A stretch of 64,000 nucleotides of DNA from Raillietiella orientalis (Eukaryota). The notes under the pieces were generated by a model. That model was not told the origin of the DNA. It was given only the letters and a program-made list of their open reading frames with translations, and did not search any database. Shown in pieces: positions 28,268-56,842 of the stretch (position 1 is its first letter; each line of letters starts with the position of its first letter). The position numbers and the translations under genes are program-made. The stretch spans positions 2,108,001 to 2,172,000 of the forward strand of contig JAYWIR010000022.1 in NCBI GenBank assembly GCA_036172245.1, in the 5' to 3' direction.

Positions 28268-30081
28268 AAGGCGTATGCTGACGATCTTTTGCTCCTGCTG
28301 CCCATGTCCGCTCCGGCTTCGGCAGTCGAGGATTTCTTCGACTTGCTGAGCCACGGGACAGGACTACGGGTGAACAGGACGAAGTCGTCGCTGGTTGCGG
28401 TTGGTGCAACGTGGGCAGGACGACCTGATTGGATCCGCCTGGGGATCCCCACGGAGAGGTACCTGAAGTGCCTCGGCGTTCCGTTGGGGGACTTCTGCCA
28501 GTCAGAAGCCTGGTCAGGTCGTCTCCAAAAAGTGGAGTCAGCGATCGGCCCGTTCCTGGAAGGCAAGCTTCACTTGCCGGAACGGGCCGCGGTGTGGAAC
28601 GCGTTCGCGGCCCTTCTCCTTCGCTCCCTGCTTTTTGTTTGCCCCGTACCCCGTGAACTGAAAAAAAGAACAAAGGACCTCCTACGCATCGCCCTGTGGG
28701 GCGGCGGGAGCCCTTGTGTGCCTTTGAAGGATTTGTGCGCTCCACGTCGGGACGGAGGTCTTAGCGTCCTGACGATGGAGCGAATATAAACACAGCTGCG
28801 GTGGCGTACTGTAGCCATCGCAACGAAAATGTGGAACACCCCTTGGGGCGTTCCAGCCCGCCTTCTCGCCAGACGTGTGTCCGGGACTGAAGGACTCGCG
28901 TCTTTTCTTCTGTGCCTCGGCCGGAAAATAAGAAGATGCGGACTTCTCCTAGGACGCATGGCCACCCTGGCAAAGGAGAACGGGTGGATGGCCTGCAGCC
29001 CCGCCAACTCCAGCGCATGGCTAAAAGAAACAGTTAAAACGTGGGCAAAGTTGAAAGACATCAGTGGAGAATCCTGCAACCGCCTGCGCACCGGCATCTA
29101 CACCCGCTGCACGCTGCGGAACATGATCGTGTGTCCCGCCAGAGGCACTTGGGCGGAGACGAACCCACTGGCCACGGCGCTGCCCTTCCTACGAAGGGCG
29201 CTTCAAAACAGCCGGAAGCCGAGATGGCAAGTCTCCTGCAGGATAGCGGGCAAGGAGAAGGATCTAAGCGGGTGGACCATGAGGGAACTGGCAGACGCCG
29301 CAACCCCAAGCGTTCACCCGCATGGAATACGGAGATGGGGCGAGCTGCTTGGCATCCCGGCGGATGACCTAGAGTGGCCCCCGTTGTTCATAGACTCATC
29401 CACCCTCCCCCTCAAGTGGCAGGAAACGGCGCTGCTGCTGCTGCACTGGGGTCTTCCCTGCAACGCGCGCCGCCACCACTGGACGTTGGGGAACGTGGGA
29501 CAGAACTGTGCAGTGTGCGGGGAGAAGGAATCCCTCCCCCACCTGTTAGTGGACTGCGCTGCCCTCCGGCTCTTGTGGGAACGTTTTGCTACGACCCTCC
29601 CTATGCGGGTCGGCAGTACCCCCAGAGACGTTGTGAGACTCCTCTTCGTGCGAGACGCCCTGCCACCAGCCTCAACCCTGGCAGCGCTCTGCTGCCCCAA
29701 AGGGATTGTGGCTGCATGGAGCGCAGCCAACAGAGGAAGCAGCGATCGGGACCCCATCGTACACGCGGGTCGCCACCTGCGAATCGCGATCGGCTGCTTC
29801 CATCTGGGAGCTAGTACGAGGGACCTCGAAGGCATCCTGGAAAGGATGGTCTCTTCCTCCAGCGGGCTGTGATCCCTTCCCGGCCCTCCAAATAGTTTCT
29901 TTTTGTTTGTTTCATTTATTTTTCTTCTTGTTTTATCCTCTATCCCCTTCCTTCCGAGAGTCAAGCCGGCCTGTGAACCGGCTTCCTGGCAGGTCCTATG
30001 AACTATTGGCCGTAGCGGGGCCTAGTACCGCAGATGTACTGTTTTTTTTTTTTTTAATAAACGCCCCGGCGTGACCGGGTG
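28268..30081 (+). mobile_element. 5'-truncated L1/Tx1-like non-LTR retrotransposon (copy A): RT C-terminal half, zf-RVT-type zinc finger and 3' UTR
   Basis: AYADDLLLL (YADD at 28274-28285), GLRVNRTKS, YLKCLGVPL, LCAPRRDGGLSV and CAVCGEKESLPHLLVDC are all in one frame, interrupted by a single TAA at 28787-28789. The ORF ends at 29872, followed by a T-rich UTR, AATAAA and a terminal hairpin. Confidence 0.88.
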
Positions 30082-33680: not shown

Positions 33681-36570
33681 AAAGAAAACCCGAAAAAAAA
33701 AAAAAAAACTGGAAGGAAAAAACAGCGAAGGTAGAAGGAAAAGAAGAACCCAAGGATTTCCAGCATGCAGAGGTCAATACTGCTCGAGGCGGGGACGTGG
33801 CCAAGGTAATCGGCACGCAGCCAGTCCTGTAGCGTGGGGCCAGGAAGGGCAGGGGCCGCTGTCCGTCGAGGTCTGCGCGCATGGCGGAAAAGCAAAGGTT
33901 CTCCCCGCCGCGCCGGACTTCCGGGAGATGCAGGGAGGAAGGGCCTGATCCTGCGGGCGAGCGTCTCACGAGGAGTCGGAGAGGAGGTGAAGCAAATGAA
34001 TAGAGGAAGGGCAGAGTGCGGGGCGGTCGCCCGGCCTCATCCATTGTGGCTCCCAGGTCCCTCATGAACGGGAGAGGCGTCCTCCCTTTTCGTTAGGGTT
34101 ATAGAGTCCACCTCATCCCCGGCCACTGCCGACACGTCTCAACCGGGCAAGCTGCCTGCATAGCGACAACCGCCGCGGCCGTCTCAAAGGGCTAAAGGCA
34201 GCGCCCTCCGGCCATCCCGCCTCCTTGTGAGGCTTCCTCTCAGCGCAGGGTCACCATCCCACCGAGTGGGCCCACCCTCTCTGAGACGAGGTCTTTTCCT
34301 GCCAGGTGGCCACATCATCCCCAAAAAGGGTGCGAAGCTCTGGAAGGACTGACCTCCAGAGGTAGGCTAGTCCCGCGCGGACTGATTGGAAGATGCACGC
34401 CGAACCCGCCAAGGAGCTCCGTGCTGACGCCTGGCATCAGAACCTTGCAACGCGCGCACCTTCCCAGCGACCTTGCGAAAGGGTGTCGGAGAAAGGGCTA
34501 GCTGTGCGACGGCTGCTCTTGCCCTCCAGGGATTCCGGAAGGAAAATTTCAAGCAGTGATCGGAACAGATCGGAAACAACCGAAACGGCCCCCCTCCACG
34601 CCCCCCTTCCTTGGAAAAATTGACGGGATCAGCCAGGACGGCGTGTGAACGAGGGAACGTCCGAGATGCGCCATCCGAGGCAGTCGAGGAGCCGTCCACA
34701 GGATCATGCTTCGTGGCCGCTTGCCCTTCCCGAGCCCCCGACCCGCGGTGGTCTCCTCTGCCCCTGTAGCCGGTCTTCCCCGACATTTTTTTTTCCCCCG
34801 CACCGCTTTTCAGTTTCCCGCCTCGACGGCAGATGGCAGCTCTGCGGGCTGGACGGCCACGGCGGCGCGAAAGAAGAAAAAAGAAAACGAAGAGGTCGCC
34901 ACCTTTTTCGGCTAGGTGGGTCGCCCTGCCCCCCCCTCGCCAAATGGTGACAGAAGGGGAACGCGTCTATCGTTCCTGGTTTTCAGGAATGCGACTTGTC
35001 CTCCCGGGAGATCCAGAGGGAAGGAGCGATTAAGTCCGGACTGGTTGAGGAAGCGGGGAGAGGGGCAGACCCTAAGGAGGACCCCCTATTGCGCGAGATC
35101 AAGCTGCAGAAGCAGCAGCAACTCCTTACCAACCTCCGTGCGGCCGCTCCTTCCCGGCGAAGAGAAAGAGCCTGGAAGCTCACGGCTTCCTGGAAACCAC
35201 CCAGCAGCCGATCGCGGGAGAGCCCCTTCCAGAGGCACGGACGCGACCCTCCCCTAGCACGGGATGGGTGTGATGCCCGGCGACGGCTAAGGTGGCCCGC
35301 ACGCCAGCGAGACACGCCAGCCCTCTCTCTCTCGGAGGTGATAGCCACTGGCAACCGAGGACCCTCCTTCCATCCTTTCTCCACGAGCCAGTGAGGCGCT
35401 CCGTGAGGCCGTTTTGTAGCCGTGGGGGGCGCCGACGACTCCCTCTGCACTCACCACCCCTTGGACCCATGCCTGGCCCGTAGATCGGTGGTGGTGTTGG
35501 CTCGGGCACAGCCTCCGTCCATGAATCGATTCGCCCCCCTACCCCTCCTACGCCTACCAGCATCTTCCGGGCGGCACATCGTCTTCCGCGTTACGCCCCT
35601 CCGGACGAGGATATTACCCATCGCTGTACCTTTTCGCGAGGAAGATGCTGTAGGCAGGTAACACCGACGGAGACGAGGGGGCGTCTTTGATAGCCAGCTG
35701 GCCGCCAGAGCACACGTCTTCGTGTCGCCACCGCCCTCTTCCCCCCCTCGCCGTCGTCCGGAAGGGTGGATGGCCCCGTGGCAGTGAAAGGAGCAGGAGG
35801 CGCATGTGGGGGAGCCGCGTGGCGCGCGTAGAGGGGGAGCGGGAGGGCCGCCATTTCGTTCGTCCTTGCGCGCGCGACTCGCGGGATGCGGTGCCAGCAG
35901 CTCCGCTCCGGCCCTTGCGGGAGGGTGAGCTGACCTCGGAAGGTGCCCGCCCGCAGACGGAACGGCGGTGGCAACCAGACCGTCCAGGGGCACAAACCCC
36001 GGATGGCACCCTGCGCCCTCCAGCCATCTCCAGCGGTCGCTGGCGAGGTCCGCGCCGAGATCCAACAGCACTCCATGAAGGGCGTTGCGACGGAGATGCC
36101 CCTTCGGAACGCCTGTCAAGGGCACGCGCTGCCGCCCTTGGAAACCGATCGTGGGGTGTGGTGTGGGAATATGGATGAGGATCCTCCCTGGAATCCGTAC
36201 TCCAAAAGCTCGAGGGCAAAATGAGCGCTGCTCCGGCTTCTACGGGGGAGGAGGAGGAGGATGGCGTGGCACCCTATGGCAGCCGTGAACGTAGCTGGGA
36301 TGGGGTTAGGCAGGCTCCAGCGCCCGAGGCGCTCCGCTCCATCAGGCCTTACTTCCCAGCGCTGGGGAGGAACGTGCTTAGACCACTCGACCTCAGGAAA
36401 GAGCAGGGACGTTGTCCGGCCCGGGGCTCGCTCCCCAGGGTCAAGACTCGGGCGAAGCGCCATATTGGACTTTTGCCTGGTCGGAGATGCGGGTCGCTTG
36501 GCAGCCCTCCCGCTTGGCGGAGACACACGACAGCGCGCGCGCGGAGAGGGGCAGAATGAGGCACAGCAAC

Positions 36571-36744
36571 CTCCCCTTCTTCCTCCTCCCCTTCTTCCTC
36601 CTCCCCTTCTTCCTCCTCCCCTTCTTCCTCCTCCCCTTCTTCCTCCTCCCCTTCTTCCTCCTCCCCTTCTTCCTCCTCCCCTTCTTCCTCCTCCCCTTCT
36701 TCCTCCTCCCCTTCTTCCTCCTCCCCTTCTTCCTCCTCCCCTTC
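36571..36744. repeat. Perfect 15-bp tandem repeat (CTCCCCTTCTTCCTC), about 11.6 copies
   Basis: Directly visible; a pure polypyrimidine/polypurine tract. Confidence 0.97.
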
Positions 36745-40255: not shown

Positions 40256-43200
40256 TCAGCGGTATCCGGGGTAGCCTGGGTATTCGGGGTAGCCTTCGTA
40301 GCCTCCTCCATAAGTGGGGGGGGCAGGTCCGTCCGGGCCCTCGGTCGTGGTTTCGCCAGGGCTCGGTCTGGGAGCGGTTGTGTCCCACGCGGAGAAGTCC
40401 ATCTCGGGGATGTCGTCGGAGTCGCAGGGGATCACCGGGTTCCTAGAAAGAGGGAGGAGAGGCGCGGGAAGGACGGGAGGAAGGAGGACGGCGCAGTCCC
40501 CGCGCTGCCCTCGACGTCCCGAAGGAGGAGTCGGCGAGGGGGAGCCTCAAGGCAGCCACCGTCCCGCGATGTCTCCTCCTTGGCCCGCTGCGAACCTCAC
40601 CGCGTCTGCGAGCCTCCCGGCGAGAGGGAGCGCTCCCTTCTCCGGGAGGAAGGGCGGAGGCCCTCGCCCCTCACCTTTCCTGGTCGGACAGATACATGGG
40701 CCACGTGTAGACCTCGGCTTCCAGTTCGGAGTTGTCACACAGCAAGCGCGCCATCCTGGCCTTATTGAGCTCCTGGATCTGCTCTGAGGGAGAGGTGCGG
40801 GCGTGGAGCCGCCAGACTTCCCCCACCTCCCACTCCACCCCCATCCCCTGCCCCCGGAACACACTTACGGGGCGTGAAGGCGCTCTGATGCTGCGTGTTC
40901 TGGTACCAGAAGCGGTCTCCCGCCTTGAGGCTGCTGAACTGCTCGGCCACGATGTGCCCGAAGGTGGGGCCCAGCACCGCGCTGGGCACCTTGATCTCCG
41001 CCAGGCCCCCCGTGTACAGGTCGATATCGTCCGGCTGCCTGCGAGAGGAACGCGCGAGAGTGTGGAATGTGTGGGGGAGGGAGCCTCCGCCACTCCCGCC
41101 CCGTCCCCAGGGGTACTCACGAGTACAGCAAACGCAGGATCTTCAGGGTTGCGTTGGTGAAGACGGCCATCTTGGAGAGCTCCTTCCAGTCGTTAGAGTG
41201 GGCCAGGCGGAAGAGCCTTCTGGATGGGCAGGGAGGCGTGGGAAGGCGAGAAGGGTCCCAGAGAAGTGGGGAGGAGGGGGAAGGGGGGAATGATAGAGAG
41301 GTCGCAGGCACGCGCCAGGGACGGCAACAAGCGCCCCGTCATGTCATCCCTCGAATCCGCCTGGGATTGGAGACGGAAGGGTGGGCCTGGAGGGAGTGCA
41401 AGGACTCCTTGGTGTGCCATCCGGGCCGTCGGCTCACTGAGCGCTTGGCAGCGGGGCCTCCCTAACCGCCCAGCCCATCCCGGGAACCGCGGGGGGGCAG
41501 GAAGAGGAGGTGGATCGGCCGGATGGGACGACCCGCTCACTTCACGAGAGGTCTCCCAACTGCCGCAGCCGCCAGAGCTGGGTGCGGCACTCCCACTCCC
41601 TACCTGCCTGAAGGACGTTCCCTCTCACCCTTCCCCCTCCCTCAGGAAGGCTGCGATGTCCGTTCAGCATCCCTGAAGGACTGAGATCTTCCTGACTTCC
41701 CGGGAGGGGAGGAATTTCTTCCCCACCCCACTTGCCACGGTTCCCGGAGCGCCCCTCTCCGCCTCCCCTCCCTCCTCCAGCTGAGAAACGGTGCAGCGCC
41801 GCTTCCTGCTGATGCTGGGACCACCCATGGGAGGGGGGAACGCAGCCCTTCGGTCTGCCTGTGCCCAGACGAAGCGGGGATGGGGCCGCCGAAAGGAGGG
41901 GCCAGGAGGACAGCGCCATGAGCATTCAGCAGGCAACCAGAGCACCGATCTTGGGAGGGTCACTGCACTTCACGATGCGCTTCCTTTTTCTTCTCTACTC
42001 TCGTTCCCTGGGATGGTTCTTCCGTCCCTTCCGTCGCAGTGCCACGGGATGGAGCAGAACCACTGGGACAGTAGAGGGAGAGTGCAGGAGCTCTCCCTCC
42101 CCTTCCCTCCTCCCCGCAACAATAGAACCCGGTGCTACTGGCGGGAGTGCACATCCGCCTCTCGGAGGGATGAGGCTTCCCGAGGGACAGCCCGCAGCAG
42201 GCGGGCAGGCGGACGGGGGCTCTCCGCCGCGTCCCTGCGACGCGCGGTCGGCCGTTGCCAGCGGCTTCCCAGCCGCCACGGGGAGAAGCGGGGGATGCCT
42301 CGAAAGACCCCAGTGGGAAGGGCTGGAGGTAATGGGGGGTGCGATAGGTCACCTGTAATGCATGTATCCCGGGAGGCCCACGTCCCTCCCCCTCTGTATG
42401 TCGATGGACACGAGGTCAAGGCCAAACTCCTGCTTGGGGTTCTCGAAGAGGTGGTTCCTCAGCTGGAAAGCAGAGAGCGGCTCCTGGGACGCAAAGGAGG
42501 GAGGCACCTGACCTCCAGTGTGACCAATTCGTCGAACTCCGAGGAGGCAGTCGTGTAGAGCCCCCTGAGGAACTCTTCGAAGGCCTCCGGGGATTGTAGG
42601 AAGAAGGGCATCAGGAAGGTAGAGCCCAGGCGGTGGGCGGCTGCAACGAAGTGCCCCCCGTTAGGAGAGAGCAGCCCTTCCTCCCCCCCCCTCGCACACT
42701 CTAGGTCCCCGTCCCCGCACCCAGGCACGCCAGCCGCCGGGGTCAACGCGCCCGAGAGGGAGCATCATGCCAGCCGGTCGAGCGGCAGGAGGAAGGGGTA
42801 CGCACGGCGTGACCTCTCTAGCCAGCGGGCCCCACCCTTCGCCCCCTCGGCCGAGGCCGGTGGTGTGATCTCTCGGAAGCGGACCGAGGGACCCATCCTG
42901 GAGACCCTCCTTCCCTGCGGAGGGAGCCGAGAGGGTCCGGCCCTCCCGTTCCCTGGACGCTGAGAGGAACGCGGCGTCCCGAGCGTCTGTGCGTGTGAAG
43001 ACGCACCCGGCCACCGACCCGAGAGGGGCTCCGGACCTCGGCGGGCCACGACCTCGCACTCCACCCCCTCCTCCCTCCTCCAGATGGCCGACCCCTTCCC
43101 TCGAGCACGTTCGCTGGTCTCCCTCGGTAGCTTCCACGGCTCGTTCTGCATCCCGCGCGGCGAGCGTCCTGGGATCGAGCTGCCGGAGCGGCTCGGGTCC

Positions 43201-46200
43201 ACCCCTGACCCGGAAGAGGGCTTCCTTTCCCTCACCCGGAGGATGGGCCGGACTAGGTGTCCTGTGGAGGGTCGGACCGCGGGCCGCCCTTGCCTCCCCG
43301 GGCAGTTGCCTCCCCCGCCTCGCGTAGCGCATCTACACGGCTGCTCTCTGCCAGCGCGTCCTCGAAGCTCTGTCGATGGGCGCCGAGACCCCGGAAGGAC
43401 CAGGAGCGCGGGGGGATAGAGGAGGGGTGAACCCACGAGACCAGCATCTTGAGACCTGAGCCCGCTCAGGGGTTCCCCCGAAAATTTTCGTTTTCCCTCG
43501 ACCGAAAAGTGGAGCGACTCGGGGAGAAGGACGACGGGATGAGGCAGGGCAGTCGGGGAAGAGTGGTTGTCGCCCCGGACGAGGTGTGCGCCTGCGCCTT
43601 CGAGGTCCCGAGAAGCGGGAGAGGGCGCCTCCGAGCTCTCTCGAGGGGAGCATCGCGGGGGGAGGTGGAAAGGGCCGGTGCCGGAGAGCGCCAGTAGACA
43701 GTCGGGGGAGGGGAATCCGCCCAAGGAGGTGACCTCGGGGGGCGCCTCCGACCCTCAGGATCTGGTCTCCTTTCCCCCTACCAGGATCGAGACGGGAATC
43801 CGGGAGAAGAAAGGAAAATCAGCCTCTACTTCGGGAAGGGGTCGCAGCCTCTGCAGCCGCCCGCTGCTGAGCCTCCGCCCCTGCGGTCTCTCCAGCCGGT
43901 CGAGCAAGGAGGAAGGGCGAGGTTCTCCGCGCGCCCCATTTCGCCTCCGATCGACGGCTCTGCTGGCACTGCCCGGTCAGCCTCATCGCTCGCGTTCCCA
44001 AGTGCCGCCCGGAGAGACCCTTGGATCCTGGTCAGCATGCTTGGATCGAAGGGTCGAGCCCTCTGGCAGGTTCAGGGGTCAAGTCCAGAGCCGCCGCCGG
44101 TGGCATCAGCAGCGGCAGTCCCCGGCGTGCTGCGGAGCGGAACCGCCAAGAAGACCACGAGAAGGTCATCGCCATCCTCACCAGACGGCGCTTTCTCGCG
44201 GCTACCGGGAAAACAAGCCTCCCTTGTTTCCGCTGGAAACAAGGGGGGCTGGCGAGCTCGCTTCGCTTCCTCCGCCTTTCCTCCGCCGACAGCGGCGGAG
44301 CGGCGTCACGCAGCCAGACCGCGGGAATTTGCCGCCCCCCTCATCCAGCATCTTCCCTTTTGCTTTCCTAACCTGCGTATGGGCGCCCCCTCTCGCCAGA
44401 GGGGAAAGGAGGGTCTCCTGCTGTGTAGGATGGAGAAAGATCGCGCACGTCACCTAAGCGCAGGAGGGAAGAAATTTTTTTTTCGAGGAGCGATTGCACG
44501 AAGAGAAGGAAGGGAGAGGGGGAAGCGGCGCCTCTCTGAATCGGATGCGGGGGGCAGGGGGAAACAGAGCGCTCGAGGGAGAAGGTTCGTGTCCGGAGTG
44601 CGCGCGCTCAGCGCCGGCTAGCGGCCAAAGAGTTTCGCCCGAGCGCTTCGCCGCCAGACGGCAGCGCGCCGACGCATCCCCCCTTACCTATGGGTATGCG
44701 CTCCTTGTCCACCCTGTCCAGCATGGGTGGCACGACAGAGTGGCCAAACCTGAAGGCCGCGGCGGCGAACTCGATCGAGCTCGTTGGGTCGACTTTGAAG
44801 TCGTACTTGTAGTTCTAAACGCCCCCCCGCCCGCGAGATGCTCCAGGCGCACCCCCGACCCTCTTACCTTGTCCAAGACCAGGTTGTAGAAATCCATAAA
44901 GTCCACCCCCAGCAGCGCCGGCAGGAACTCGTTGTAGGTGACCACTTGCATCTCGGCGGCCACGATCCTGCGGGCCGTCTGCACCGGGAGCCCCGAAGGG
45001 AGAGAGATGAGTCAGCAGCAGACCACGGAGACCCCACCGCCGCCCCCATCACCCCTCTCCTGTGGGTGCGCGACAAACCTGGAACAGAGTCTCGTCGTCC
45101 CACTCTGGGTTCACCCTCTCCAGCTCCTCGGCGACCCGGTTGTGCTCGCTGAGCATCAGGATGACCATCTGCGCTATGCCGATGTTCATGTTGGCCCGGA
45201 CGTCCCCTGAGGTGGCAGACTCGGCACTGCCGCACCCCACGACCGCGATGCCCCCTTCCTCACCTGTCTGGAAGCAGAAGACCTCCTTCTTCATCCTCAG
45301 GCAGAAGGAGTCGGGACCGTCCTTCTTGAGAGGCGGAAGCGACTCCGTGTCCAGCAGCATGCGGCCTCCCTGGTTCTCCCTCAGGGTCCTAAGGCAGCGA
45401 ACAGAACGCGGGTACGCCCTCCGTGAGTTCTCCTCCCGGCCGCGGGAGGTGCGCCGCCACACATGCGCGAGAAGCGCGTGCAGGTGGGAGGGTTGGAACA
45501 GGGGAGTGCCGAGGCGGGGAGGGCAACCCCCGACATCCCGGGGAAGCCGCGGGCGGAGCTGGACCGTGGTGGTGATGGTGAGGTGGAGGAAGGAGTGCGC
45601 ACACTCCCGGGGTCCGACGGGCACGGTACGCAGATCCTTCGGTGCCTGCGGTGCACGCCAAGGCGGCGGCGAACAGGCCGCGACCCTCCCAGAGGGCCGG
45701 TCGCCCCATCCCGCTTAAACCCGACCACCCCCTTTGCTCATGTGGAGGGGACGCAGCCCCCCTCTTTCCCTTGCCTCGCCTTGGGTCGGCGCCACCCGGC
45801 CGGCGTTTCCGTCCCACTTCCCTCAAGGGCGTCTGAGACCCTTTACGACCCCGGGATTTATCAGATGGAGAGAGCGGAGGCTGCCGCCCCTTCCCGCCTA
45901 GCGCAGCCACTTCCCGGAGGGGCCCGTCAAGGCCCAAACATCCGGGGCAGGCCGCCTCGCCCCTCTTCCCCTCGGGGGCTGGCAACTCACCTCAATAAAT
46001 CCGGATCGACCCCGTAAATGGAGCTGCCGTCGATGGTGGAGGTCACCAGGTTGAACCCATTCCTTTGCCCTGGGGCGACGGGAACCCTTTTACGACCCGA
46101 CCAGCCGCGACCTCGCGTACCCAGCCTGCAGGACTCCCTCAGCCCGGGGTTTATCCTGAAGTTGTCGAAGCAGGTGACCCCGTAGGGGGAGTAGAAAGAG

Positions 46201-49200
46201 TCGTTGAAGAGCACCTGCACCCTCATACAGTGCTGAGGTGGGCGCTCGCCCGCTGCGTGGTCGCCGCAGCACTTACCGACGCCCCATCTGGCGTAGTCTG
46301 TTGCGGAAGTGTGAAGAGGGATCCGAGCGCCCACCGCTCCCGCCTTACCCAGGTCGATGGCCGCGAAGGTGGTCTCCAAGTAAAGCAGGTGGCCCCAGTA
46401 GGCAAACACCTTGCTGAGCGCCGCCGCCGCGTAGTCGGCGGTGCTTCCGTGCACGCGGTTGGACACCACGCGCTCCATCGGCAGCCCCCGCTGCCGGGGG
46501 GACTGTAGATCGTCGTCGTAGGCGGCCGGCAGCAGCCTGATGAGCAGACGCGCGCGCGCGCGTGGGAGGAGGGGGAAGTAGGACCGTTTCTGCCGGACGG
46601 CCCGGCGGACTGCGGGTCGCACCACGGGACGCCAGGGGACGCGCCCTGGAGTTTCCGCAAGCACCGGAAACCCTGCCCGAACGCACGCTCTCCACCACTT
46701 CGCGTGAACCCCAGGCAGCCCTGACGCTCGCCTTCCCTCCCACGTCTCCTCCGCCCGGAAACAGCCCGCGCGTGGCCGTGCCGGTGGTATTCGGGGAGGA
46801 AGGACACATGATCGGCCATCACTAGTGCAAGAGCCCCTCCTTTCCCTGCCCCCCTTGCCGCTGTCAGGAAGCGGAGCCATGCGACGGAAACGGAAAGACG
46901 GTGGCGCCGTCGAACGCAGTTGGCGGAGAGTACAGCAGCTGCCGTCAGGGAGAGGGACGGGGCACACGGCAACAAGGGGAGCGTGCGCCCACGTCATCCC
47001 TTCAGAAGTCGCCTGCGGACGGGTGGCAAGCAGCGGGTTCGCGCATTTTCCGCGAGCGTTTCCTCAGGGGGCAATGGGCGGGCGCCAAGCTCCGGGCTGG
47101 AGCCACAAAAACCGAAGCACCGGCAGGCCGGTCGCTCTCCCCGGTGGCGTGTCTCCTAAGGCGCCACAGGTGTCCGCTCGGAGGTGCCGCGCTCGAGGCC
47201 CTCCGTTCGCACGCAGCCCCGCTCTTCCCGGGGACTCAAGTAGCCTTCGGGGATCGTCGCAGAAGACCCCAGCGACCTCCCCTGACCAGCACCCGGAGTC
47301 TGGGCTGGTCAGGCATCCCTCTTTCCGAAAGACTCCCGGCGTCGGGCGGGGGGTTAGGGGGCGAGCTCACCAGAAGCTTGTCGCGCTCGCCTTGCCGCGA
47401 CCCCCCCAGAGTCGCACGGCCTTAAGACTACAAAAAGGGGTGAGGGGGACAGGGTGACTGCGCCTCATCAGACCTCGTTCACGTGGCCTTGAACCGCTGA
47501 ACTCCTGTGGCTTCCGCCGTACGAGGATCCCTCTCAGAGCGCGCCGCCCCTCCCCTCTCCTTCTGCACGACGGGAACCCCAGGAGCGAGGGAGGATTCAG
47601 AACCACCACCTCGGGCGGCGGCAGAGGAGGCTCTCAGGGGGCGCGGACAAACGGAGAGGCCTCTGGAGGGTGCTTGGTCTCGCTGCCCGGACTCTTCGGC
47701 TCCTGAACAAAGGACGTGCTGCCTCTCCCCTTCCTCCTGCCCACCGGGCCACGCCGGTGCACGGAGCGGGAGGAGGCTCTCGAAGGGAATGGAAGTACGG
47801 TGCCCCGCGCGGAGTCTGGGTCAGAAATGGGGGGCTCCTGAAAGACGCGGGAGGGGGTCCTCTCGGAAAAGGGAGCCTTGGCTTCATAGCGCCCCAAGGG
47901 GTGGTCCCTCAACACGAAGAAAGGAGAGCCCCGGGAGACTCAAGGGGCGTGTCGTGGCAGGGGCGAAGCCCCCGACTTCCCCCATGTTCTCCCTCCGGAG
48001 CCCTGGGATCTGATCGAACTTTCAGGTTCGTGGAGCCGCACGCTACCTACCCCACGAAAGCGCATGCTTCTTCCTTGTGCTCGACGGATGCAGCAGGGAA
48101 TCTGATATTTGCGGAGGGGGCGCGTCGAGGGACTTCTCGTTCCGCAGTTGTGGGTCCGCTATTCCGCAACCCTCCTCCCGAGACCCTCTCTTCCTCGCTT
48201 CCCACGCGAGAGCCCCCAGCAAATCAACGGGCCGAGCTCTGCGAGAACCAAGCGGGGAGGGGGGTTGGAGCTTCTGCCGCCGGCCGCGAGATGTCTCTGC
48301 TTTCCATCTCTGTCTTTCCCGTCTGGCGGCGGCGTCCGAGAGCACGACTCCGCGAACACCGAAAAGAGAGACCGCGTTCGAGACAGGAGACCGAGGAAAA
48401 GGTGGAAGCTCTGAGGCGTGCGGGAGACGCACGCATCCCGTGGTGTGGACAAAGTCCGGCGGCGTGGAGTCTTCGCGATCCCTCAGGAGAGCGGAGGAGT
48501 AGGAAAGGCGCCACGACGCCGAGAGAGGGAAGGCAAGGAAGGCCCGTGACCCTCGGGGCCCCGGGAAAGCGACGTCACCGGACCCCATGGGGCCTCGGGC
48601 ACCTGAGCTTCCCTTTCCTCACTCCCGTAAGCCTCTGACCCCGTGCTCCGAGCCGAAATGCCAGAAAACGCAGCACGCGAAGACCTTCGCAAGGGCCATC
48701 GCCTCCCTCAAAGCCGGGATGTCCGGCCATGCAGAGTCTCAGCGGCTGGAAGACACTCTGTCGGGCTGCTTCGTTCCAGATGGAGAAGCAATTGGTCTCT
48801 GAGCTGAGCGGGAGCACTCCCTCAGGTAGGGGCCGACAGCTCTCCCCCTCACGAAGCTCACGACGGCGAGGTCCACAGGCTAGCAGGACCGGAGCGGCCC
48901 CATGCCTGCGCGCTGCCCCAAACTCCGTCCCGATCGAGCTGTTTCCTTCTCTCCTCCCGCTCCTCCCGAGCGGAGGGGACGTGTCCCTTCCCTTCCTTCG
49001 GGAAGGACGGGTGGATACTGTCCCCGGGCTCACCCTCCACCGCCGCCGGGCGACGCGGCGCGGGCCGGAACGCACCTCCTGTACTGGGCCATGGCCGCTC
49101 CGAAGATCAGGTGCTCGACATTGTTGCAGATGCCGTCAATGTCCTGGGGTGCGTCCTCGTTGCAGGTCAACTTCCAGAAGATAGAAGGGCAGAGCTTCTG

Positions 49201-50973
49201 GACGGGGGTGTTGGCGAGGTCCAGCATCGGCAGCTTGAGGGCCAAGTGCTCCGCGGTCAGCTGGAACCTGGGGGGAGAGGGTGTGGCGCCATCGCCGTTG
49301 GGTCTCTTCCTCCTCCCCCCCCCTTCCACCCGCGCTCACTGCTCCTTCAGCAGCTCCGTGGTCTTCAGCAGGACGGCGGCCAGCCTGGAGACACTCTCGA
49401 CGTCCGGTGGATCCTTCAGCGGTCTCGACTTGAAGTCTGGAACGGGGACGAAGGAGAATCGGGGCTCCAGCAGGTCCAACCGTGCCGCGAGCGGGCTCGG
49501 GAGCTCCTCCTGTGGTCGGTGCTCCCGGGGGGAGAAGAGGAGGCGGAGACAGCATGCCTGGCTTCGGCGAACAGCTCGCGTCCGTGGCGCTATCCCCGGC
49601 GCGAGCGGCGCTCGCACCGGTACGCGGGTGCTCATGGCGCGCAGAGGGAGCTCAGCGGCTTAGTTACACCGCTCGCCAGCAGAAAGCGCTCACGTCGCAT
49701 TGCACCCACCCGTTGCTCGTCGTCCCACCCCCTCCGGCGCGATCGGAGCAACGCGCCGAGCAATGCAAGGCCCGGGGAGGGAGGGAGGAGCTCCTCCTCC
49801 TTCCCCTCCCGCGAGTGGGGCTGTTGCACCCCGCCATACCTTCGTCCAAGAAGAGCACCGCCTTCTGGAAACTCTTGGTGATGTCTCCACGGGTGATGCA
49901 CGCCCTGGAAAGAGAGGGGGAGGGTGGTTACTCCCGGAACCAGGAAAGGGTGGGAGGAGAGGGAGAGAGGAGGCAGTAGGTCTGCACCAGGATGTCCGAG
50001 GAGGGCGAGGGCGAGCTGTGGCTGCTTCCCAGTTGGCGGAGCTCGGGGGGGGAGAGGGAAGGGGCCTCACTTCCATCTCCCCCGCCACGCCACTTCCGAT
50101 GGTTAGTGAGGAAGGCAGAACACCACCGCCATGGAGGGCGCGGCTATCCAAGATGGCGGCGGTGGGACATCCTCGAGCCTTCCCCCGGCAACGGCACCTC
50201 CCAGTCGTCCCCTCACAAGCTGGGAAAGGGCGCGGTTCCCTTGGCAGCCCCTGCGTGCGGGGAGCGGGGGGCACGCCTGCGGCTACTTACTTGGACGGCA
50301 CCTCTGGAAACGACAACAGGCACTCTTCGGGCTTTCCGTGACCTGCAAAGGGAATCGATGTCTTCGTCGAGAGTCCTCGGAGGGGCCGCGGTCCCTCGGT
50401 TCACCCGCCCCGCCCCGTGGCTCACCTCCTTCGCCTCCCAGAAATTCCCCAGTCCCGTGTTGCGTGCCGCTGCCGCCAGTCGGGGTCGGCTGAATGGTCG
50501 GCGAGTATCCCCCCGAGAACGGGGGCGGCTTGGCGTACCCCTCGTAGCCCCCGTAGGGCTTCCCGCCGCCACCGGGGTAGTAGCCTCCCCCGTGGGCAGA
50601 GGAGCCGTAGCTCTCCGACTGGTACTGGGGGGCGCCATGCTCGTAGTCCTGCCAGGAGAAGGGCGGGATCTCCTCGTCGGGCAGCGAGTAGCCCACCAGG
50701 ACGTCTTCTCCGTCGAGCCTGGGGCCCGAGGTGAGGGACGGTGCTCTCCTCCCGTGCAACCTCCCCCGGCTCACATCCCGTACTCCTCGAAGCCGCCGTG
50801 CATCCTCTGTCTCGTGGGCGACGGCGACGACTGCGACGGCTTGGAGGTGCCCTTGCCGCCTTTGCCGCCCGCGGACTCCCCCGTGGGCGGGGTGGAGGCC
50901 TTCCGGGAGACCTGCGTCGGCGGGTTCTCCAGCTGGTGGCACAGCTGGGCGACGAGCACGCAGAAGGAGAGCT
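40256..50973 (-). CDS. Animal haem peroxidase (peroxidase-cyclooxygenase superfamily; chorion peroxidase/peroxinectin-like) protein with a degenerate distal site; first exon not located
   Basis: 19 GT-AG-bounded, phase-compatible exons: 50973-50775, 50718-50426, 50342-50291, 49904-49840, 49436-49340, 49267-49076, 46536-46349, 46297-46121, 46069-45991, 45388-45264, 45206-45079, 44978-44868, 44814-44688, 42640-42513, 42462-42353, 41219-41121, 41038-40869, 40783-40675, 40442-40256 (about 878 codons). Motifs: DIDGICNN, RRLLPAAYDD, VTSTIDGSSIYG, CFQTGDVRAN, EHNRVA..NPEWDDETLFQTARRIV, TYNEFLPALLG, EFAAAAFRFGHS, GLDLVSIDIQRGRD, DIDLYTGGLAE, LKAGDRFWY, ARLLCDN. A hydrophobic signal-peptide-like stretch (LSFCVLVAQLCHQ) lies at the 5' end. 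Confidence 0.9.
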
Positions 50974-53900
50974 CTGGAAAAAAGAGGGCGCCGGCATCGG
51001 CGCCGAGGTGTCCGGGACGGACGCGGGGAGGCACGGCTGTCGCGAGCGCGGGACGCGTCCCCTTCAGGCGCGCGGCGTCCGTTGCCCGGGACAACCTGCA
51101 GGAGGGGCGCACACGCGGTGGGAGCACCGCGCAGGGCGGGGAAGCCAGAGGTCAGGGAGAGGACACTGGGAGACCGACGGGGAGGGAACTCCTCCAGTAA
51201 CCTCCTTCGGTCGACCAGCTCGCGGGCACCCGCGGCTACCTCTTCAGAGACCTCGGCGACGAGAGGTCCGCGGCCGCAAACGCGGTCCGTGGGCGGCATG
51301 ACAACCGGCGGCGAGGTTCCTGCCTCCGTCCGCGTGCGGGGATCGGGTGAAGGGTCTGGACCAAGATTCGGCTAGCATCGAGGGGTGCCCAGGCGATCCT
51401 GGACCAAAGGACACTGACTCCTCCCTCACGCGCCCTGGCGGTTCCCAAGGGATAGGAAGGAGAGGGGGGGGAGGAAGAAGTCGAGGGGACAGCTCTGGAG
51501 GGCGCGCGCGTGCGGCGTTGCCATGGAGCGCCCCGCGGGGACGGCGGACGGAGATGCCGGAAGCGGAGCCGGTCGCCGTCTCTGGAGATCTTCCCGGGCT
51601 CCCCCTCGCGAAAGAAGTGGAGAGGAATTCGTTGTCCCCCACCCTCACCCCTCCCTGGAGTTTCTCCGACGCAGCGGCGAACCCCGTGGCACTCGCGCGC
51701 CGCTTCCCCTTTTCCTCCCTTTGTTCTCCGCCTGCCATCATCTCCCACCAGTCCGGGGACCTGCGTCCACCGCCCTCGCGCGCGACCACCTCGGCGCAGA
51801 GTCAGCTTAGGGGCGCAGCGCTAGCAGAGTGCGCCATTTTACTTACTCCACGAAAAGAGCGCCATTCCTCCTCAGGGCGAGCGCGTTCCGGGCCGGAGAA
51901 CGACTGAGGTCGCAAGCGCTTCCTCCCGCGGGAAGACTCCCGAAGGCACCGTCAGCGGAAAAACCTCCGGAGCAAGCAGGCGAGCGCGCCCTCCTCCCCA
52001 TTGCCACGGAGACGCAAGCAGGAGGAGACGGGAGGGAGAGGAGGGAACAGGCGAAGAGGCGCTGCACCCATACCGATCGGGAGGCGAGGACGGGAGCGGG
52101 ACATCAGGAAGGGAAGAGAGGGCAGAGGGACGTCCTCTTCGGGAGAGCAGAGGGGATGGGCCGAGCCGACCACAGCGGCGCCAAGGGCCGATTACCGCTT
52201 TGAATGCCGGAAAAGCGGCAGGAGGAAATGGGGAACGGGAGGCAGGGGATAGCCTCAGGGCCAGGAACCACAGAGGTGGGACGGGGATGAATTAGGGGGT
52301 GCTGTTCTCTGTCGACGCGTGGATACGGTCCGTGAGCCTCCCCGAGCCCAGCTCTTCTGCGCCGGGCTGACTTCCCGGCTTTTCCCCCCAACCACGCGAA
52401 AAAAGGGGGGAGGATTGGCGCGTCCTCCCCTTCCCTGGAGTGGGAAGCGCGTGAGCGGGAAGCAGCCCGGGAGTCTGCATCCCGAGAAGGAGGCCGGTCC
52501 GCCGGAGGTCGTGTCCGTGGTAACGAGCTCCCGTCAGACCGTGGCGTCCTCCCGGAAGGTCTGCCGGAACTCGCAGAAGAGAGCCTCCTGGGACCCTTTC
52601 CATTTCTGAGGAGACCAACGTTCTTTCCCACAGCCCTATGACTGGGCCACGGTGCCCTGCTACGTGACAGCTTCCTACGGGGGCCCCGACCGGGACCGGA
52701 CGCAGCAGGAGTGGGGACGGCATCCACTTCCCACGTCCGCGGATCCCTGGGTCCCTAGAAAGAGAGAACAGTCACGACTATCCTTCTCGCGTTCCTCCCC
52801 AGCTTCCCTCTAAGAGTGAGTGAGGAGCAGGAGAGGATACCCAGCGTTCTCCCTCCCGGCGGGAGATGGCAGCACGGAGGTGTTGGAGTTCGCGACGAGA
52901 GGTGGCAGCACATCGGGAACCCAGTCCGACGCGCTCGGTGCAAGCATCCGTTGGGGGAAGGCCGACTCATCTGCTGTATTCTTTTCCATCTCTCCGTACC
53001 TTTGCCACCCCTACCACCGTTCTTTCCTCTCGGACTGATATTGGATTTTTTTTCAGGCGCTCCTTCCTTCCCTGCCAGACTGGAGGAAGGGTGGGGGAAG
53101 AGCCGCTTCTTTTTCCTCCCTTTCTCGGCTCGAACTCTCCTTAATCGAAAACCTCGTATGGTTAAAGGGGAATGGGCGGGCGGTCCCCCGGATTTCTGGA
53201 GGACCGAGATCGATCAAGCAGGAAGCAATCAGAGGAAGACGAGCAGTTCAGTATTTCCCCTCCTCTCTAGCGGAGCCTGCTGGCTCTCGCAGCACCGCCT
53301 CGCGGAAGGATCCCCCGAGAGCTCTGTTTCTCCTCCCTCCTCCGAGATGGAACCGTGAGCGCTCCTTCGAGAAAGCGAGTGGGAGGGGAAGAAGAGCCGT
53401 CTTGTGGGCTGAACCCATCGCCGTCCTGCAGATTTGCTGCATCTCGCTGCCAGGTGATTACAGAATCCTTCCTCAATCCCATCCTGCCTCGTGACTCCTG
53501 CTGTGGGGGATGACGTCACTAATGGCTGAACGCACCTATTCATTAGTGTTGTGCAAAGGATGAAGGCGATTACCGGAAAACACGCAAGCTAATTGCGATG
53601 TTCCTCGCGAGGCCCCTGGGCGGTCTCCATGCGGCAACTGCATGCCTATGTTGGATGCAGAACCCCCTTCCCCGCGCCGGAGACGTCTTCTCGCGTCATC
53701 CAGCGGGACGACTGGGAAGCGCGCGGTCATGCCGGGAGAGAACGTGTGCTTTCGGGTCGCTAACAGGAAACGCCTAAGGATCCCTTTCTTTCGCCCCCCA
53801 ATCTCACAAGCGCTCGCAAGTCCCATCGCGCACGTCATCCTTCCCGCCCACAGGAGAGCCTTGGGCCGTGCCATCTGAGATCACCTCAAGCGCCCCCCGA

Positions 53901-56282
53901 TGGCCGGACTTTTTTCTCCCAGGCGCTGCGCAAGCCCGGCCCTGGCGACTTGTGAGCGCACCTGCCCACCCACCCGCGAGCGCACCCTTCCTGCTCCCCC
54001 TCGTCCACGGCAGCAGGGCTTCCTCCGTCTTCCTCCCCACTTCCGCCTCCGCCATCTCCTTGGCTTCCGTTGGCTCCGCGGTAGCCACCTTCGCGCGTGG
54101 TCTCCGAGCTTCCCGAGCGCACCTGACGGCCGTGCAGAGCACGACGGCTGTCAGGTGGCGGCAGCCGCGGAGAGATGCCCCTGCGTGGAGGGGCAGGTCG
54201 CGAAGCCGCTGCCACGCAAGGTGGGTGCGGCTCCGGATGGGGTGGGGCGAAGCGGAGAGCGCTCTCCGAAGCGCACCGTCCGGGGCGAGCACGCGTACCA
54301 CCAAGTCATTCTTTCGGCAAGCTTCACACACACCTCTCTTCTCTTTCGTCCCCGTTCTTCGTGGGGGCAGGCACACGTCCGCAGGGGGTGGGGAAGGAAG
54401 GGTGACGTCCGGCGGCTGACCCCGGATAAGTCCCCGGAGAAGAAGCCTGGCCTGGAGCGGCGGCGGGCGAGCGATCCGGGAATGCGAACCCTCTTCCCCC
54501 TCCCCTCGAGCGCATCTCCTCGGACAGGCTTCCACCCTCGGACCTCCGCCTGGAACGAGAGATGTCGGGGAGCGCCCCCGGCACATTACGCGGATGCCAG
54601 GAGAACGGGAGACTTCCGGAAGAGCGCGCGAGGAGCGTCCAAGGTCGCCTGAGGCCTCGGGACGCACCCCGCGCGTGCTCGCAACGAGGTCACAAGGAGG
54701 AGGGGGAGAGGGGAAGGCAAGGGACTCACGTGACCCGGAGGGCAACAGTAGCCAAGGCGACCCGGTTCCAGGGGCTCGCCTCACGTGCAGGAAGAACCGC
54801 TCTTCACCCCCTCCGGCGCCGACAGCTCAGCGGAAGAGGCCCTGGCTGTCGGAGGTCCCGGTTTTTATTATTTTATTGGGCTCCTGGCGATCCACCTTTG
54901 CGCGCGGTCCCCCTCTCCGAGCCCAGCCATAAAAACCCGAGGCGATCCCCGAAGAGTGCCTCCTCGAGGGGAACGAGCAGCAGCCACCGCCACCACCACC
55001 ACGGCGCGCGTGCGTGCACGCGCGCGCCTCGCCTCATCGCGCTCACGATTGCGGCGGCGGCGGCGCGCGAGATCGAGGAGGAGGAGTAGGGGGGGGGATG
55101 GGACGGCTCTCTCCCGGGAGCGAAAGTGCAAAAGCCGCGCGCGCTCTGCTCTCCGGTCTCCTATGGCAACGGCACGGTGGTCGCACGCGGCTCCGTGTCA
55201 CCGAGCCAGCGCTGGTGTGCTCCAGAAGAGAGAATTTTTCCTTGTTTCCCATCAACCTCTGCGAGATGCCGTCTCCCGTGGGGAGGCTTCCCCGCCCGCC
55301 CGCCCGCCTGCCCTCGCGTCCCGTTTGCGAGCGACGGTGCCGGCTCTGGCGGCGGGCGAGCAGCCTGGCCAGGCGCCGCCAAGCACCGACCCGTCGATGC
55401 ACGCGCCAGCGACGCTGCGGTCCGCCTCCGCAGGCACCCTTCCCTCGGTGCCACCGCCCCCCTTTCCGGTGTGCGTCGGTCTTCCCGATGCCGTCATGAG
55501 TCTCTCGGAGCAATCCCTCGATCTCTCCCTCCCTCCCCTGCCGGCGGGGAGAGAAAGGCGGAGAGGAGGTGAGATGGAAAAAGGTGGAAGAAGCGAAGCT
55601 CTGTCCTGCGCAGATTTCGGTTCCCCGCCTCCTCCTCCCACCAAGCAGCCACCTCCAGGACAATCGAGCCGCTTGCAGTGTTTCCCCCCGGCGCGCCTGC
55701 TGCAAACGGCCGTGTTTTCCCATACCGTCGCGGGCGAACGGCCAATGGGTATCGCCTCGGTGCACCGAACTTTTATCGTGCTCCCTTTGGCGATCACTGC
55801 CATTAACGAATGATCATTACTTGATTGGGGATTCGCATGATCCTGGCCGGGCGGAGCTCGCCTATCCTTCCCCCCGCTGGCGAGGGACGCGGCTCCGGGA
55901 CGCGCCGGATTCCGCCGGCTCCCCAAGGCTTGGGGAGCTCTTTCCTGGCGGATTCGCCCGCCGCCGCCCGCCTTTTGCTGCCGATCACGTGACCAGCGGC
56001 TCTCCGACTGCGAGCGACACTTCAGGGAAAGGAACAACACCGCTGGTCGCGAGTTCTTCTCCTGCACGCGCACCTCCCTCCCCCCCCCCCTCCCCTCCCC
56101 TCCCCGACTGGTTTCCCCGATGCGCGCGCTTCGGGCGACTCGGCGGCCAGCTCGTCCGCGAGAACGCGGAAGGCTGCGTGTGCCCCACCTGAGGCTCAAA
56201 GGGTTGCCCAACGGGGCCGGAGCGGAGCAAAGTGCGCCGGAGAGAAAACGACTACCGTCGATGCGACGCAACGCAGATTCCA

Positions 56283-56322
56283 GCACGCACGCACGCACGC
56301 ACGCGCGCGCGCGCGCGCGCGC
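56283..56322. repeat. (GCAC)n(GC)n alternating purine-pyrimidine microsatellite
   Basis: Directly visible, about 520 bp downstream of the sob-like stop codon. Confidence 0.9.
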
Positions 56323-56842
56323 TCTGCGGATGCCTGGCAGTTAGGCGCGGAGCCGCGCAGCACTTATGAATTCGAATTGGCTAATTCGAGCCGACACACG
56401 TGGCGTTGGTTTCGCGTAGTATGTGTGTCAGGGAAGGGTCATTGCATGATGGACGTATGCGATGCTCCGGCGCTGCGCCTCCCCATTAGCAGGAAAATTC
56501 GGCACGACTCGTGCGCGCTCGAAGCAGAGCATTCTCTCTGCAGCAGCGTTTCCTAGCTGCGCCGCCTCCCGTTGCTACGGAGCCAGTTCTGTCGAAAAGA
56601 ATAAACGCGCCTCTCTCTCTCTCTCCTCCCCCCCCTCCTCGTATTTCTTCTTTGTTTTTTTTTTTTTCTTTCTTTCTTTCTTCCTTCCTTTCATTCTTTC
56701 TCTTCCCCCCCCCCCTCTCCCTCTCCCGTTTTCTCTCAATCGGTTTGAGCGGAACGGTGATTTTATTTCCTTCAAATCCGCGCATCCCATGACGATCTCT
56801 TCGGATTCCTGTCGAGATCCGGCACCCCCGAACAGTCATCTG

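What the first reader, a model, noticed from the sequence alone, without database searches (positions are those of the whole stretch)
40256..50718. Gly/Tyr-rich tails at both ends of the peroxidase-like protein: an enzyme fold turned cross-linking substrate?
Seen: the N-terminal exon 50718-50426 encodes YQSESYGSSAHGGGYYPGGGGKPYGGYEGYAKPPPFSGGYSP, and the last exon ends PTYGGGYEGYPEYPGYPGYR*. The motif GGYEGY occurs at both termini, and a signal-peptide-like segment lies upstream. Established: GGY/GY-rich segments are typical of cuticle, eggshell, silk and adhesive proteins that are dityrosine or quinone cross-linked by peroxidases. Inference: a catalytically degenerate peroxidase with Tyr-rich ends may be a secreted structural node in an extracellular matrix or glue, cross-linked by an active paralogue. 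This is the best candidate for an undescribed system in the window.
Basis: partly seen in the sequence, partly recalled or inferred. Interest (0 to 1): 0.78.

Follow-up and report, generated by a model that had tools for sequence, protein, structure and literature searches.

The report
Disabled peroxidase with tyrosine-rich tails
This arthropod gene is an intact copy of a cuticle-hardening enzyme that has lost its key catalytic residues and gained short tyrosine-rich ends, so it may be glued into the body covering by its working relatives, but nothing here shows where it is made or what it does.

Summary
A 20-exon minus-strand gene (51865-40256, 884 aa, all GT-AG, no internal stop) encodes a signal-peptide-like start, a long disordered Gly/Pro/Tyr extension, a Curly Su (Cysu)-clade heme-peroxidase domain and a 42-aa Tyr-rich tail. 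The GY exon is exon 3, not the first. GGYEGY lies at both ends, differs only at three silent sites, and its coding pattern occurs nowhere else in the genome search.

The distal site is rebuilt (Q91H, D94Y, H95L, E242M). The proximal His, 14 of 16 family cysteines and 87 of 107 deeply conserved positions are kept, so this is a maintained pseudo-peroxidase, not a decaying gene. None of the orthologues whose ends could be delimited, nor three paralogues on the same contig, has such tails. An intact Cysu gene lies about 45 kb away.

The tails are small (17 Tyr) and only modestly richer than normal Cysu tails. Inactive peroxidase domains are already known (PXDNL, Duox), no close orthologue was found and no RNA run was listed. 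Passive cross-linking into cuticle or egg coat is plausible (about 0.4) but unshown. Verdict: new variant of a known kind; interest 0.42.

The parts
51847..51865 (-). Predicted exon 1 (ATG, first 6 residues of the signal-peptide-like leader, GTAAGT donor). An alternative first exon at 53874-53808 also fits the phase.
50775..50973 (-). Exon 2: hydrophobic core of the leader, then a Ser/Pro/Gly/Lys-rich disordered segment
   Evidence: GC3 0.97 in model frame; 9-residue hydropathy peak 2.5
50426..50718 (-). Exon 3: acidic segment, GY block (50624-50499) with GGYEGY at 50552-50535, Pro/Thr/Gly linker
49076..50342 (-). Exons 4-7 (50342-50291, 49904-49840, 49436-49340, 49267-49076): Cysu-type N-terminal helical domain with conserved ECLL and CIT cysteines; RGD at residues 193-195
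46374..46397 (-). Rebuilt distal motif in exon 8: WGHLLYLE in place of WGQFxDHD (Q91 to H355, D94 to Y358, H95 to L359, D96 to E360, mature MPO numbering)
45187..45198 (-). Distal Arg kept (R499 = R239); heme-ester Glu replaced (M502 = E242)
44740..44751 (-). Proximal Arg and His kept (R597 = R333, H600 = H336)
40675..46536 (-). Exons 8-19: animal heme peroxidase domain (PF03098). Introns fall at the same places as the breaks between exon matches in the intact neighbour paralogue.
40256..40442 (-). Exon 20: conserved end of the domain, Pro/Thr linker, then a tail with Tyr at every third residue (40318-40259), GGYEGY at 40306-40289, stop TGA; 18-bp tandem duplication at 40261-40295

Best explanation
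A secreted pseudo-peroxidase derived from a duplicate of the arthropod cuticle peroxidase Curly Su. Shown from sequence: an intact gene, a fold under constraint, loss of the distal His/Gln and both ester residues, and disordered Tyr-bearing extensions at both ends. From established peroxidase chemistry: without the distal His-Arg pair it should not split H2O2 efficiently. Inferred: it is secreted with an intact Cysu paralogue into a cuticle or egg coat, where that enzyme, fed H2O2 by Duox, oxidises the exposed tail tyrosines to di- or trityrosine. The protein is thereby fixed by both ends as a bulky two-handled spacer or scaffold. My odds by step: real secreted protein with both tails 0.9; no canonical peroxidase activity 0.8; tails serve covalent anchoring about 0.55.
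For: The gene is a 20-exon open frame. It keeps 87 of 107 deeply conserved positions but only 22 of 143 variable ones, and 14 of 16 family cysteines; the two lost align to MPO C440 and C497, recalled as one disulfide. The distal changes lie in a gap-free alignment, and no alternative exon with an intact motif was seen in the introns. Mutating the equivalent Gln and Asp erases peroxidasin activity (PMC8533639, passages). The N-extension is 169 aa against a median of 49 in 103 of 117 orthologues that could be delimited; the last 20 residues hold 6 Tyr against at most 4 in 107 of 117. The shared motif has only silent differences. An intact paralogue lies about 45 kb away and a Duox-like gene is present. 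Cysu with Duox bonds fly cuticle (PMC4654585, passages). Several cuticle proteins of this genome end in Tyr/Pro/Glu-rich tails.
Against: There are no expression, location or cross-link data. No close orthologue was found in two word-index searches and one phmmer search with exon-sized queries, so tail conservation is untested. Tyr density exceeds orthologues only modestly: the best 20-residue N window has 5 against at most 4, and the best C window 6 against at most 5. Normal Cysu tails already carry extra Tyr (78 short tails, 5.9% against 3.8%). The motif match is post hoc (p about 0.01) and partly follows from both ends having Tyr every third residue. GGY is absent from 13 of 13 cuticle-protein frames examined. 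The proximal heme side is fully kept, which a purely structural role would not obviously need.
Confidence: 0.4

Rival explanations
1. A non-catalytic partner or modulator of active Cysu, comparable to PXDNL beside peroxidasin. The folded domain does the work (binding the enzyme, substrates or cells), and the tails are generic low-complexity linkers or non-covalent, possibly sulfotyrosine, binding segments rather than cross-link handles.
For: The domain surface and cysteines are kept. Many tail tyrosines sit next to Glu/Asp, the recalled context for sulfation (sequence). There is an RGD at 193-195. Cysu orthologues often carry long unconserved extensions of 350-870 aa. The C-tail shows a recent-looking 18-bp duplication and weak codon bias.
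Against: The same Tyr motif at both ends, with silent differences only, suggests a specific Tyr function. An RGD is expected by chance in roughly 1 of 5 proteins of this length (my estimate).
Confidence: 0.27
2. A rebuilt rather than dead site. Heme still binds through H600, and the new H355 (at the Gln91 position) or Y358 acts as a substitute base or sixth ligand. The protein is then a weak or altered oxidase, or a secreted heme-sequestering protein, tethered by its tails.
For: The proximal Arg/His, distal Arg, R424 equivalent and the Thr/Asp/Ser of the Ca loop are kept. Duox peroxidase domains were reported to cross-link tyrosine ester (PMC2196470, passages), although the fly domain lacks both His (PMC4654585). 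Mitochondrial gene order hints at a parasitic ichthyostracan crustacean, where heme handling could matter (inference).
Against: Four active-site residues are changed at once, and smaller changes at two of the same positions abolish peroxidasin activity. Asn421 is replaced by Asp. The geometry of H355 was not modelled.
Confidence: 0.23
3. A decaying duplicate or a wrong gene model, in which the GY exon is not spliced to the peroxidase exons or the gene is drifting toward loss.
For: Long branch (3.2-3.3 changes per column). No transcript evidence. Exon 1 spliced directly to exon 4 would also be in frame.
Against: No stop or frameshift in 2655 coding bases, 19 GT-AG introns, strong codon bias in exons 2-3, and a constraint gradient of 81% against 15%. 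Skipping exons 2-3 would delete the hydrophobic leader.
Confidence: 0.1

Closest known systems
Curly Su (Cysu, CG5873) clade of arthropod heme peroxidases
   Same: 35-39% identity over about 680 aa to the best hits, same N-terminal ECxLL/CIT domain, same loss of His in the QRGRDHG motif; falls inside the Cysu clade at SH-aLRT 100.
   Different: Distal Gln, Asp, His and ester Glu are replaced, one cysteine pair is lost, the N-extension is three times the median length, and both ends are Tyr-rich. Its position within the clade is unresolved.
PXDNL (peroxidasin-like protein), an inactive peroxidasin paralogue
   Same: A secreted paralogue kept beside an active enzyme, with changes at the same distal Gln and ester Asp, and Asp as one of the variants at Asn421 (PMC8533639, PMC3533774; passages).
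   Different: PXDNL belongs to another subfamily, with LRR/Ig/vWC domains, and the distal His is described as conserved in peroxidasins. Gly/Tyr tails were not mentioned in the passages read.
Duox peroxidase-homology domain; degenerate first domain of arthropod double-domain peroxidases
   Same: Peroxidase fold lacking the distal His (PMC4654585 passage; P0011 first domain has WASFILDD).
   Different: Those are domains of larger proteins and also lack the proximal His. This is a stand-alone protein that keeps it.
Tyr/Gly-rich cross-linking substrates (chorion proteins, resilin, cuticle proteins)
   Same: Gly/Tyr/Pro low-complexity segments of the kind cross-linked through dityrosine (PMC13409908, PMC2196470; passages). 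The resemblance of SESYG and SGGY to resilin repeats is recalled, not tested.
   Different: Only 42 + 20 residues with no repeat array and no chitin-binding domain; no Pfam or Atlas match for the GY exon.

Membership tests
Animal heme peroxidase fold (PF03098) | Profile match above the curated cut-off | tested here: met
   3 of 7 window pieces scanned score 58-70 bits against a cut-off of 25; the other 4 lie outside or at the edges of the domain
Cysu/CG5873 clade | Groups with Cysu orthologues, not with other arthropod peroxidases | tested here: met
   SH-aLRT 100 in two quick trees; best bit scores about 470 against at most 353 for other subfamilies; long-branch caveat
Cysu/CG5873 clade | Conserved cysteine scaffold | tested here: met
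   14 of 16 columns kept
Active peroxidase-cyclooxygenase enzyme | Distal His95 | tested here: not met
   L359 (codon TTG). The Asp-His pair is found in 110 of 117 orthologues, and the His in all 3 paralogues
Active peroxidase-cyclooxygenase enzyme | Distal Gln91 | tested here: not met
   H355
Active peroxidase-cyclooxygenase enzyme | Distal Arg239 | tested here: met
   R499 aligns with LPO R255
Active peroxidase-cyclooxygenase enzyme | Heme ester residues Asp94 and Glu242 | tested here: not met
   Y358 and M502; VNE is found in 105 of 117 orthologues
Active peroxidase-cyclooxygenase enzyme | Proximal His336 and its partner Asn421 | tested here: inconclusive
   H600 kept; the partner is D681, a variant also seen in another paralogue of this genome
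Active peroxidase-cyclooxygenase enzyme | Ca2+ site (Asp96 plus LTSFVDAS loop) | tested here: inconclusive
   E360 for Asp96; loop Thr, Asp and Ser kept
Active peroxidase-cyclooxygenase enzyme | Heme binding and H2O2-dependent turnover | not testable with these tools
   Needs recombinant protein
Dityrosine-cross-linked matrix protein | Secreted, no membrane anchor | tested here: inconclusive
   Hydrophobic leader present; best later 19-residue hydropathy 1.17; no signal-peptide predictor was on hand
Dityrosine-cross-linked matrix protein | Tyr/Gly-rich disordered segments | tested here: met
   Both ends are 71% G/P/S/E/Q/K/T, with 11 and 6 Tyr, but short
Dityrosine-cross-linked matrix protein | Found in matrix, with dityrosine at these residues | not testable with these tools
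   Needs proteomics
Peroxinectin-type adhesion protein | KGD/RGD near the C-terminal end of the domain | tested here: not met
   The only RGD/KGD is at 193, in the N-terminal domain; the canonical site is C-terminal (PMC4519255 passage)

The most novel reading that the evidence does not exclude
The cuticle cross-linking enzyme Cysu has been duplicated and turned into its own substrate: a heme-disabled globular scaffold with matching Tyr-every-third-residue handles at both ends, polymerised into cuticle, hook or egg coat by its intact neighbour. It would be the end point of a graded series of four Cysu copies on one contig (intact; one ester lost; both esters lost; distal His lost as well).
Probability: 0.3. 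Interest if true: 0.65.

Novelty: new variant of a known kind. Interest (0 to 1): 0.42.

Why it matters
Inactive heme-peroxidase domains are known, but their jobs mostly are not. If the tails are cross-link handles, this is a clean, testable case of an enzyme co-opted as a structural part of the matrix it used to harden, with enzyme and substrate encoded close together. It would also suggest that the mildly Tyr-rich tails of ordinary Cysu enzymes tether them in cuticle. The four graded paralogues are a natural series for asking what each active-site residue is kept for. If the animal is a parasitic crustacean, the protein may bear on its surface coat or eggs. If the tails are incidental, it is one more pseudo-peroxidase.

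Tried and rejected
RNA evidence: no RNA holder was listed.

Orthologue hunts with exon-sized in-frame pieces gave 0 hits among 7689 candidates, 1 distant hit among 175 and 13 weak phmmer hits; these are insensitive queries. Two alignments of exon pieces to a full-length homologue were misaligned and not used.

The GY exon had no Pfam family and no usable Atlas hit. Both tails have no other match in the genome better than E 0.2. An alternative exon with an intact distal motif was sought and not seen: all 10 HMM hits map to model exons.

Other reading frames of exon 3 are open but score -26 and -42 in codon bias, so they were rejected. A sister relation to the paralogue C22b was rejected as long-branch attraction. 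The careful tree did not finish, so only quick trees are cited. My recall that PXDNL has Gln-to-His was wrong; the paper says Trp.

Hemocyanin_M and 7tm_6 searches were blank without a positive control and are not used. No structure or complex job was sent, because the spliced protein cannot be given as a window reference.

Paper searches listed no description of a His-less Cysu paralogue with Tyr tails. The library lacks most subscription journals, and no supplements were read.
Full report
Setting. The window is G000:C22:2108001-2172000 of a 210-Mb, 491-contig genome. The animal is an arthropod: 14 matches to the cuticle domain Chitin_bind_4. A 9.2-kb mitochondrial contig shows cox2-trnD-atp8 with no trnK called between them, trnR next to trnK after nad3, and tRNAs of 54-63 nt. 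The pentastomid and fish-louse tables I read share cox2-D-atp8 and R-K (PMC12856591, PMC10999652; table passages). Other tRNAs here are ordered differently and the trnK call is on the other strand, so 'ichthyostracan crustacean' is a hint only.

Gene model. Nineteen exons from 50973 to 40256 join through GT-AG introns into one open frame. A short exon at 51865-51847 supplies an ATG in the right phase and gives 884 aa; one other phase-compatible first exon (53874-53808) was found within 6 kb. It is needed for frame between exons 2 and 4, and its product runs into the ECLL motif that matches the Cysu N-terminus. Its synonymous-codon score in the model frame is 10.8, reached by 0 of 5000 intron windows; the other two frames score -26 and -42. 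The C-tail is not distinguishable from intron by this test (14%), but needs no splice. The leader has a hydropathy peak of 2.5 and no later segment looks membrane-spanning (best 1.17). No RNA run was listed, so the splicing is predicted, not observed.

The tails. The N block is 42 aa with 8 Tyr and the C block 20 aa with 6 Tyr. GGYEGY stands at residues 129 and 869. Composition-preserving shuffles gave a shared 6-mer in 0.7% and 1.2% of 20,000 trials, and the two DNA copies differ at three third positions and no replacement site. The degenerate pattern for this peptide has 2 exact matches in the genome search, both in this gene; the reversed control pattern has 3. The test is post hoc, and both ends place Tyr at every third residue, which raises the chance of a match. 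The C-tail includes an 18-bp tandem duplication.

Tails in relatives. Among 117 Cysu-type orthologues (120 listed; the Strigamia double-domain and two spider proteins were left out), the N-terminus could be delimited in 103 and the C-tail in 107. The extension here is 169 aa against a median of 49 and a maximum of 91. The best 20-residue Tyr count is 5 against at most 4 at the N end, and the last 20 residues hold 6 against at most 4. No orthologue contains GYEGY. Against the reading: 78 short orthologue tails already hold 5.9% Tyr against 3.8% in the core, and seven long-tailed orthologues reach 5 Tyr per 20. Scans of 25 fetched loci around the other peroxidase genes found no Gly/Tyr-rich segment; the last exon of the intact neighbour may not be fully known. 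Of 13 cuticle-protein frames, none has GGY, though four end in Tyr/Pro/Glu-rich tails of similar flavour.

The enzyme domain. Three pieces match PF03098 above cut-off. The protein is 35% identical to an Orchesella Cysu over 720 columns and sits in the Cysu clade at SH-aLRT 100 on a branch of 3.2-3.3, with its place inside the clade unresolved (quick trees, long-branch warnings). Bridged to myeloperoxidase through that protein and to lactoperoxidase directly, the residues named essential in PMC3533774 (passages) read as follows. Changed: Gln91 to His355, Asp94 to Tyr358, His95 to Leu359, Asp96 to Glu360, Glu242 to Met502, Asn421 to Asp681. Kept: Arg239, Arg333, His336. The Val in QRGRDVG is not degeneration, since Cysu orthologues have Phe there (109 of 117). 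No intronic alternative exon restores the site. Changing the equivalent Gln and Asp erases peroxidasin activity (PMC8533639, passages).

Constraint. The fold is maintained: 87 of 107 positions conserved across subfamilies are kept, 63 of 134 Cysu-specific ones, and 22 of 143 variable ones. Fourteen of 16 cysteines are kept; the two lost align to MPO C440 and C497, which I recall as a disulfide pair.

Paralogues. Three more Cysu-type genes lie on the contig. C22a (about 2.084-2.104 Mb, same strand, about 45 kb away) has an intact site. C22c (about 3.02 Mb) keeps His and Glu but has Asn for Asp94. C22b (about 2.04-2.05 Mb) keeps His but lacks both ester residues. A gene on C25 has Duox-like motifs (the label is recalled). 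So an active partner and a peroxide source plausibly exist. In the fly, Cysu acts with Duox to bond cuticle (PMC4654585, passages; PMC5225594, passages).

Mechanism. Best reading (0.40): a secreted pseudo-peroxidase fixed into cuticle or egg coat through tail tyrosines oxidised by the intact paralogue. The loss of catalytic residues is shown, loss of activity follows from known chemistry, and cross-linking and tissue are inferred. Rivals: a non-catalytic partner with incidental or non-covalent tails (0.27); a rebuilt heme site with weak activity or heme binding (0.23); decay or a wrong model (0.10). For the second rival, the proximal side is intact, and Duox peroxidase domains were reported active (PMC2196470, passages) although the fly domain lacks both His.

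Comparison and novelty. It works, at best guess, like a chorion or cuticle dityrosine substrate (PMC13409908, passages; a paper on a 'dual role' of chorion peroxidase appears there only as a reference title). It is a member of the Cysu clade but fails membership of the active enzymes. Inactive peroxidase domains are known: PXDNL, Duox, and the first domain of P0011. The combination with matched Tyr tails was not found in searches, which cover an incomplete library. PMC4937341, PMC4519255 and PMC9138014 were seen as passages and add little; no supplements were read. Verdict: observation confirmed, interpretation partly supported, new variant of a known kind, interest 0.42.

Noticed in passing
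window about 61600-56843, minus strand (zinc-finger exons 60763-60561 and 57638-56843): A five-finger C2H2 gene ending in an FCIAEIM motif, 5 kb upstream of the peroxidase-like gene on the same strand. Pfam zf-C2H2 is confirmed; the assignment to the odd-skipped/bowl family is recalled.
   Followed up: partly
G000:C22 about 2036000-2054000 (L005-L006, +) and 3022000-3030000 (L007, -): Two further Cysu-type paralogues with partial loss of heme-ester residues (GQAIAHD with RVNQ; GQAINHE with RVNE), forming a graded series with the intact neighbour and this gene.
   Followed up: partly
L010 (G000:C5 about 55700-56700): The first domain of a double-domain peroxidase appears to lack the proximal His motif.
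   Followed up: no
L026 (G000:C282:1-9200): A C-rich, G-poor mitochondrial contig with rearranged short tRNAs and a 560-base gap between cox1 and cox2 that holds a cox2-like open frame. The genome has 54 COX1 matches, mostly broken nuclear copies.
   Followed up: partly
G000 whole genome: No Hemocyanin_M (hemocyanin/prophenoloxidase) match (no positive control). If real, cuticle hardening here would lean on peroxidases or laccases.
   Followed up: no
window 28790-29872 +: A weak zf-RVT match (E 1e-4, below cut-off), probably a decayed LINE fragment.
   Followed up: no
window 36570-36744 and 789-968: A perfect 15-bp tandem array (11.7 copies) and a 26/78-bp degenerate array.
   Followed up: no
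L032-L033 (G000:C8 about 4846000-4854000): A pair of near-identical cuticle-protein genes on opposite strands with long Gln/Gly/Arg/Ser/Tyr repeats, candidate cross-linking substrates.
   Followed up: no
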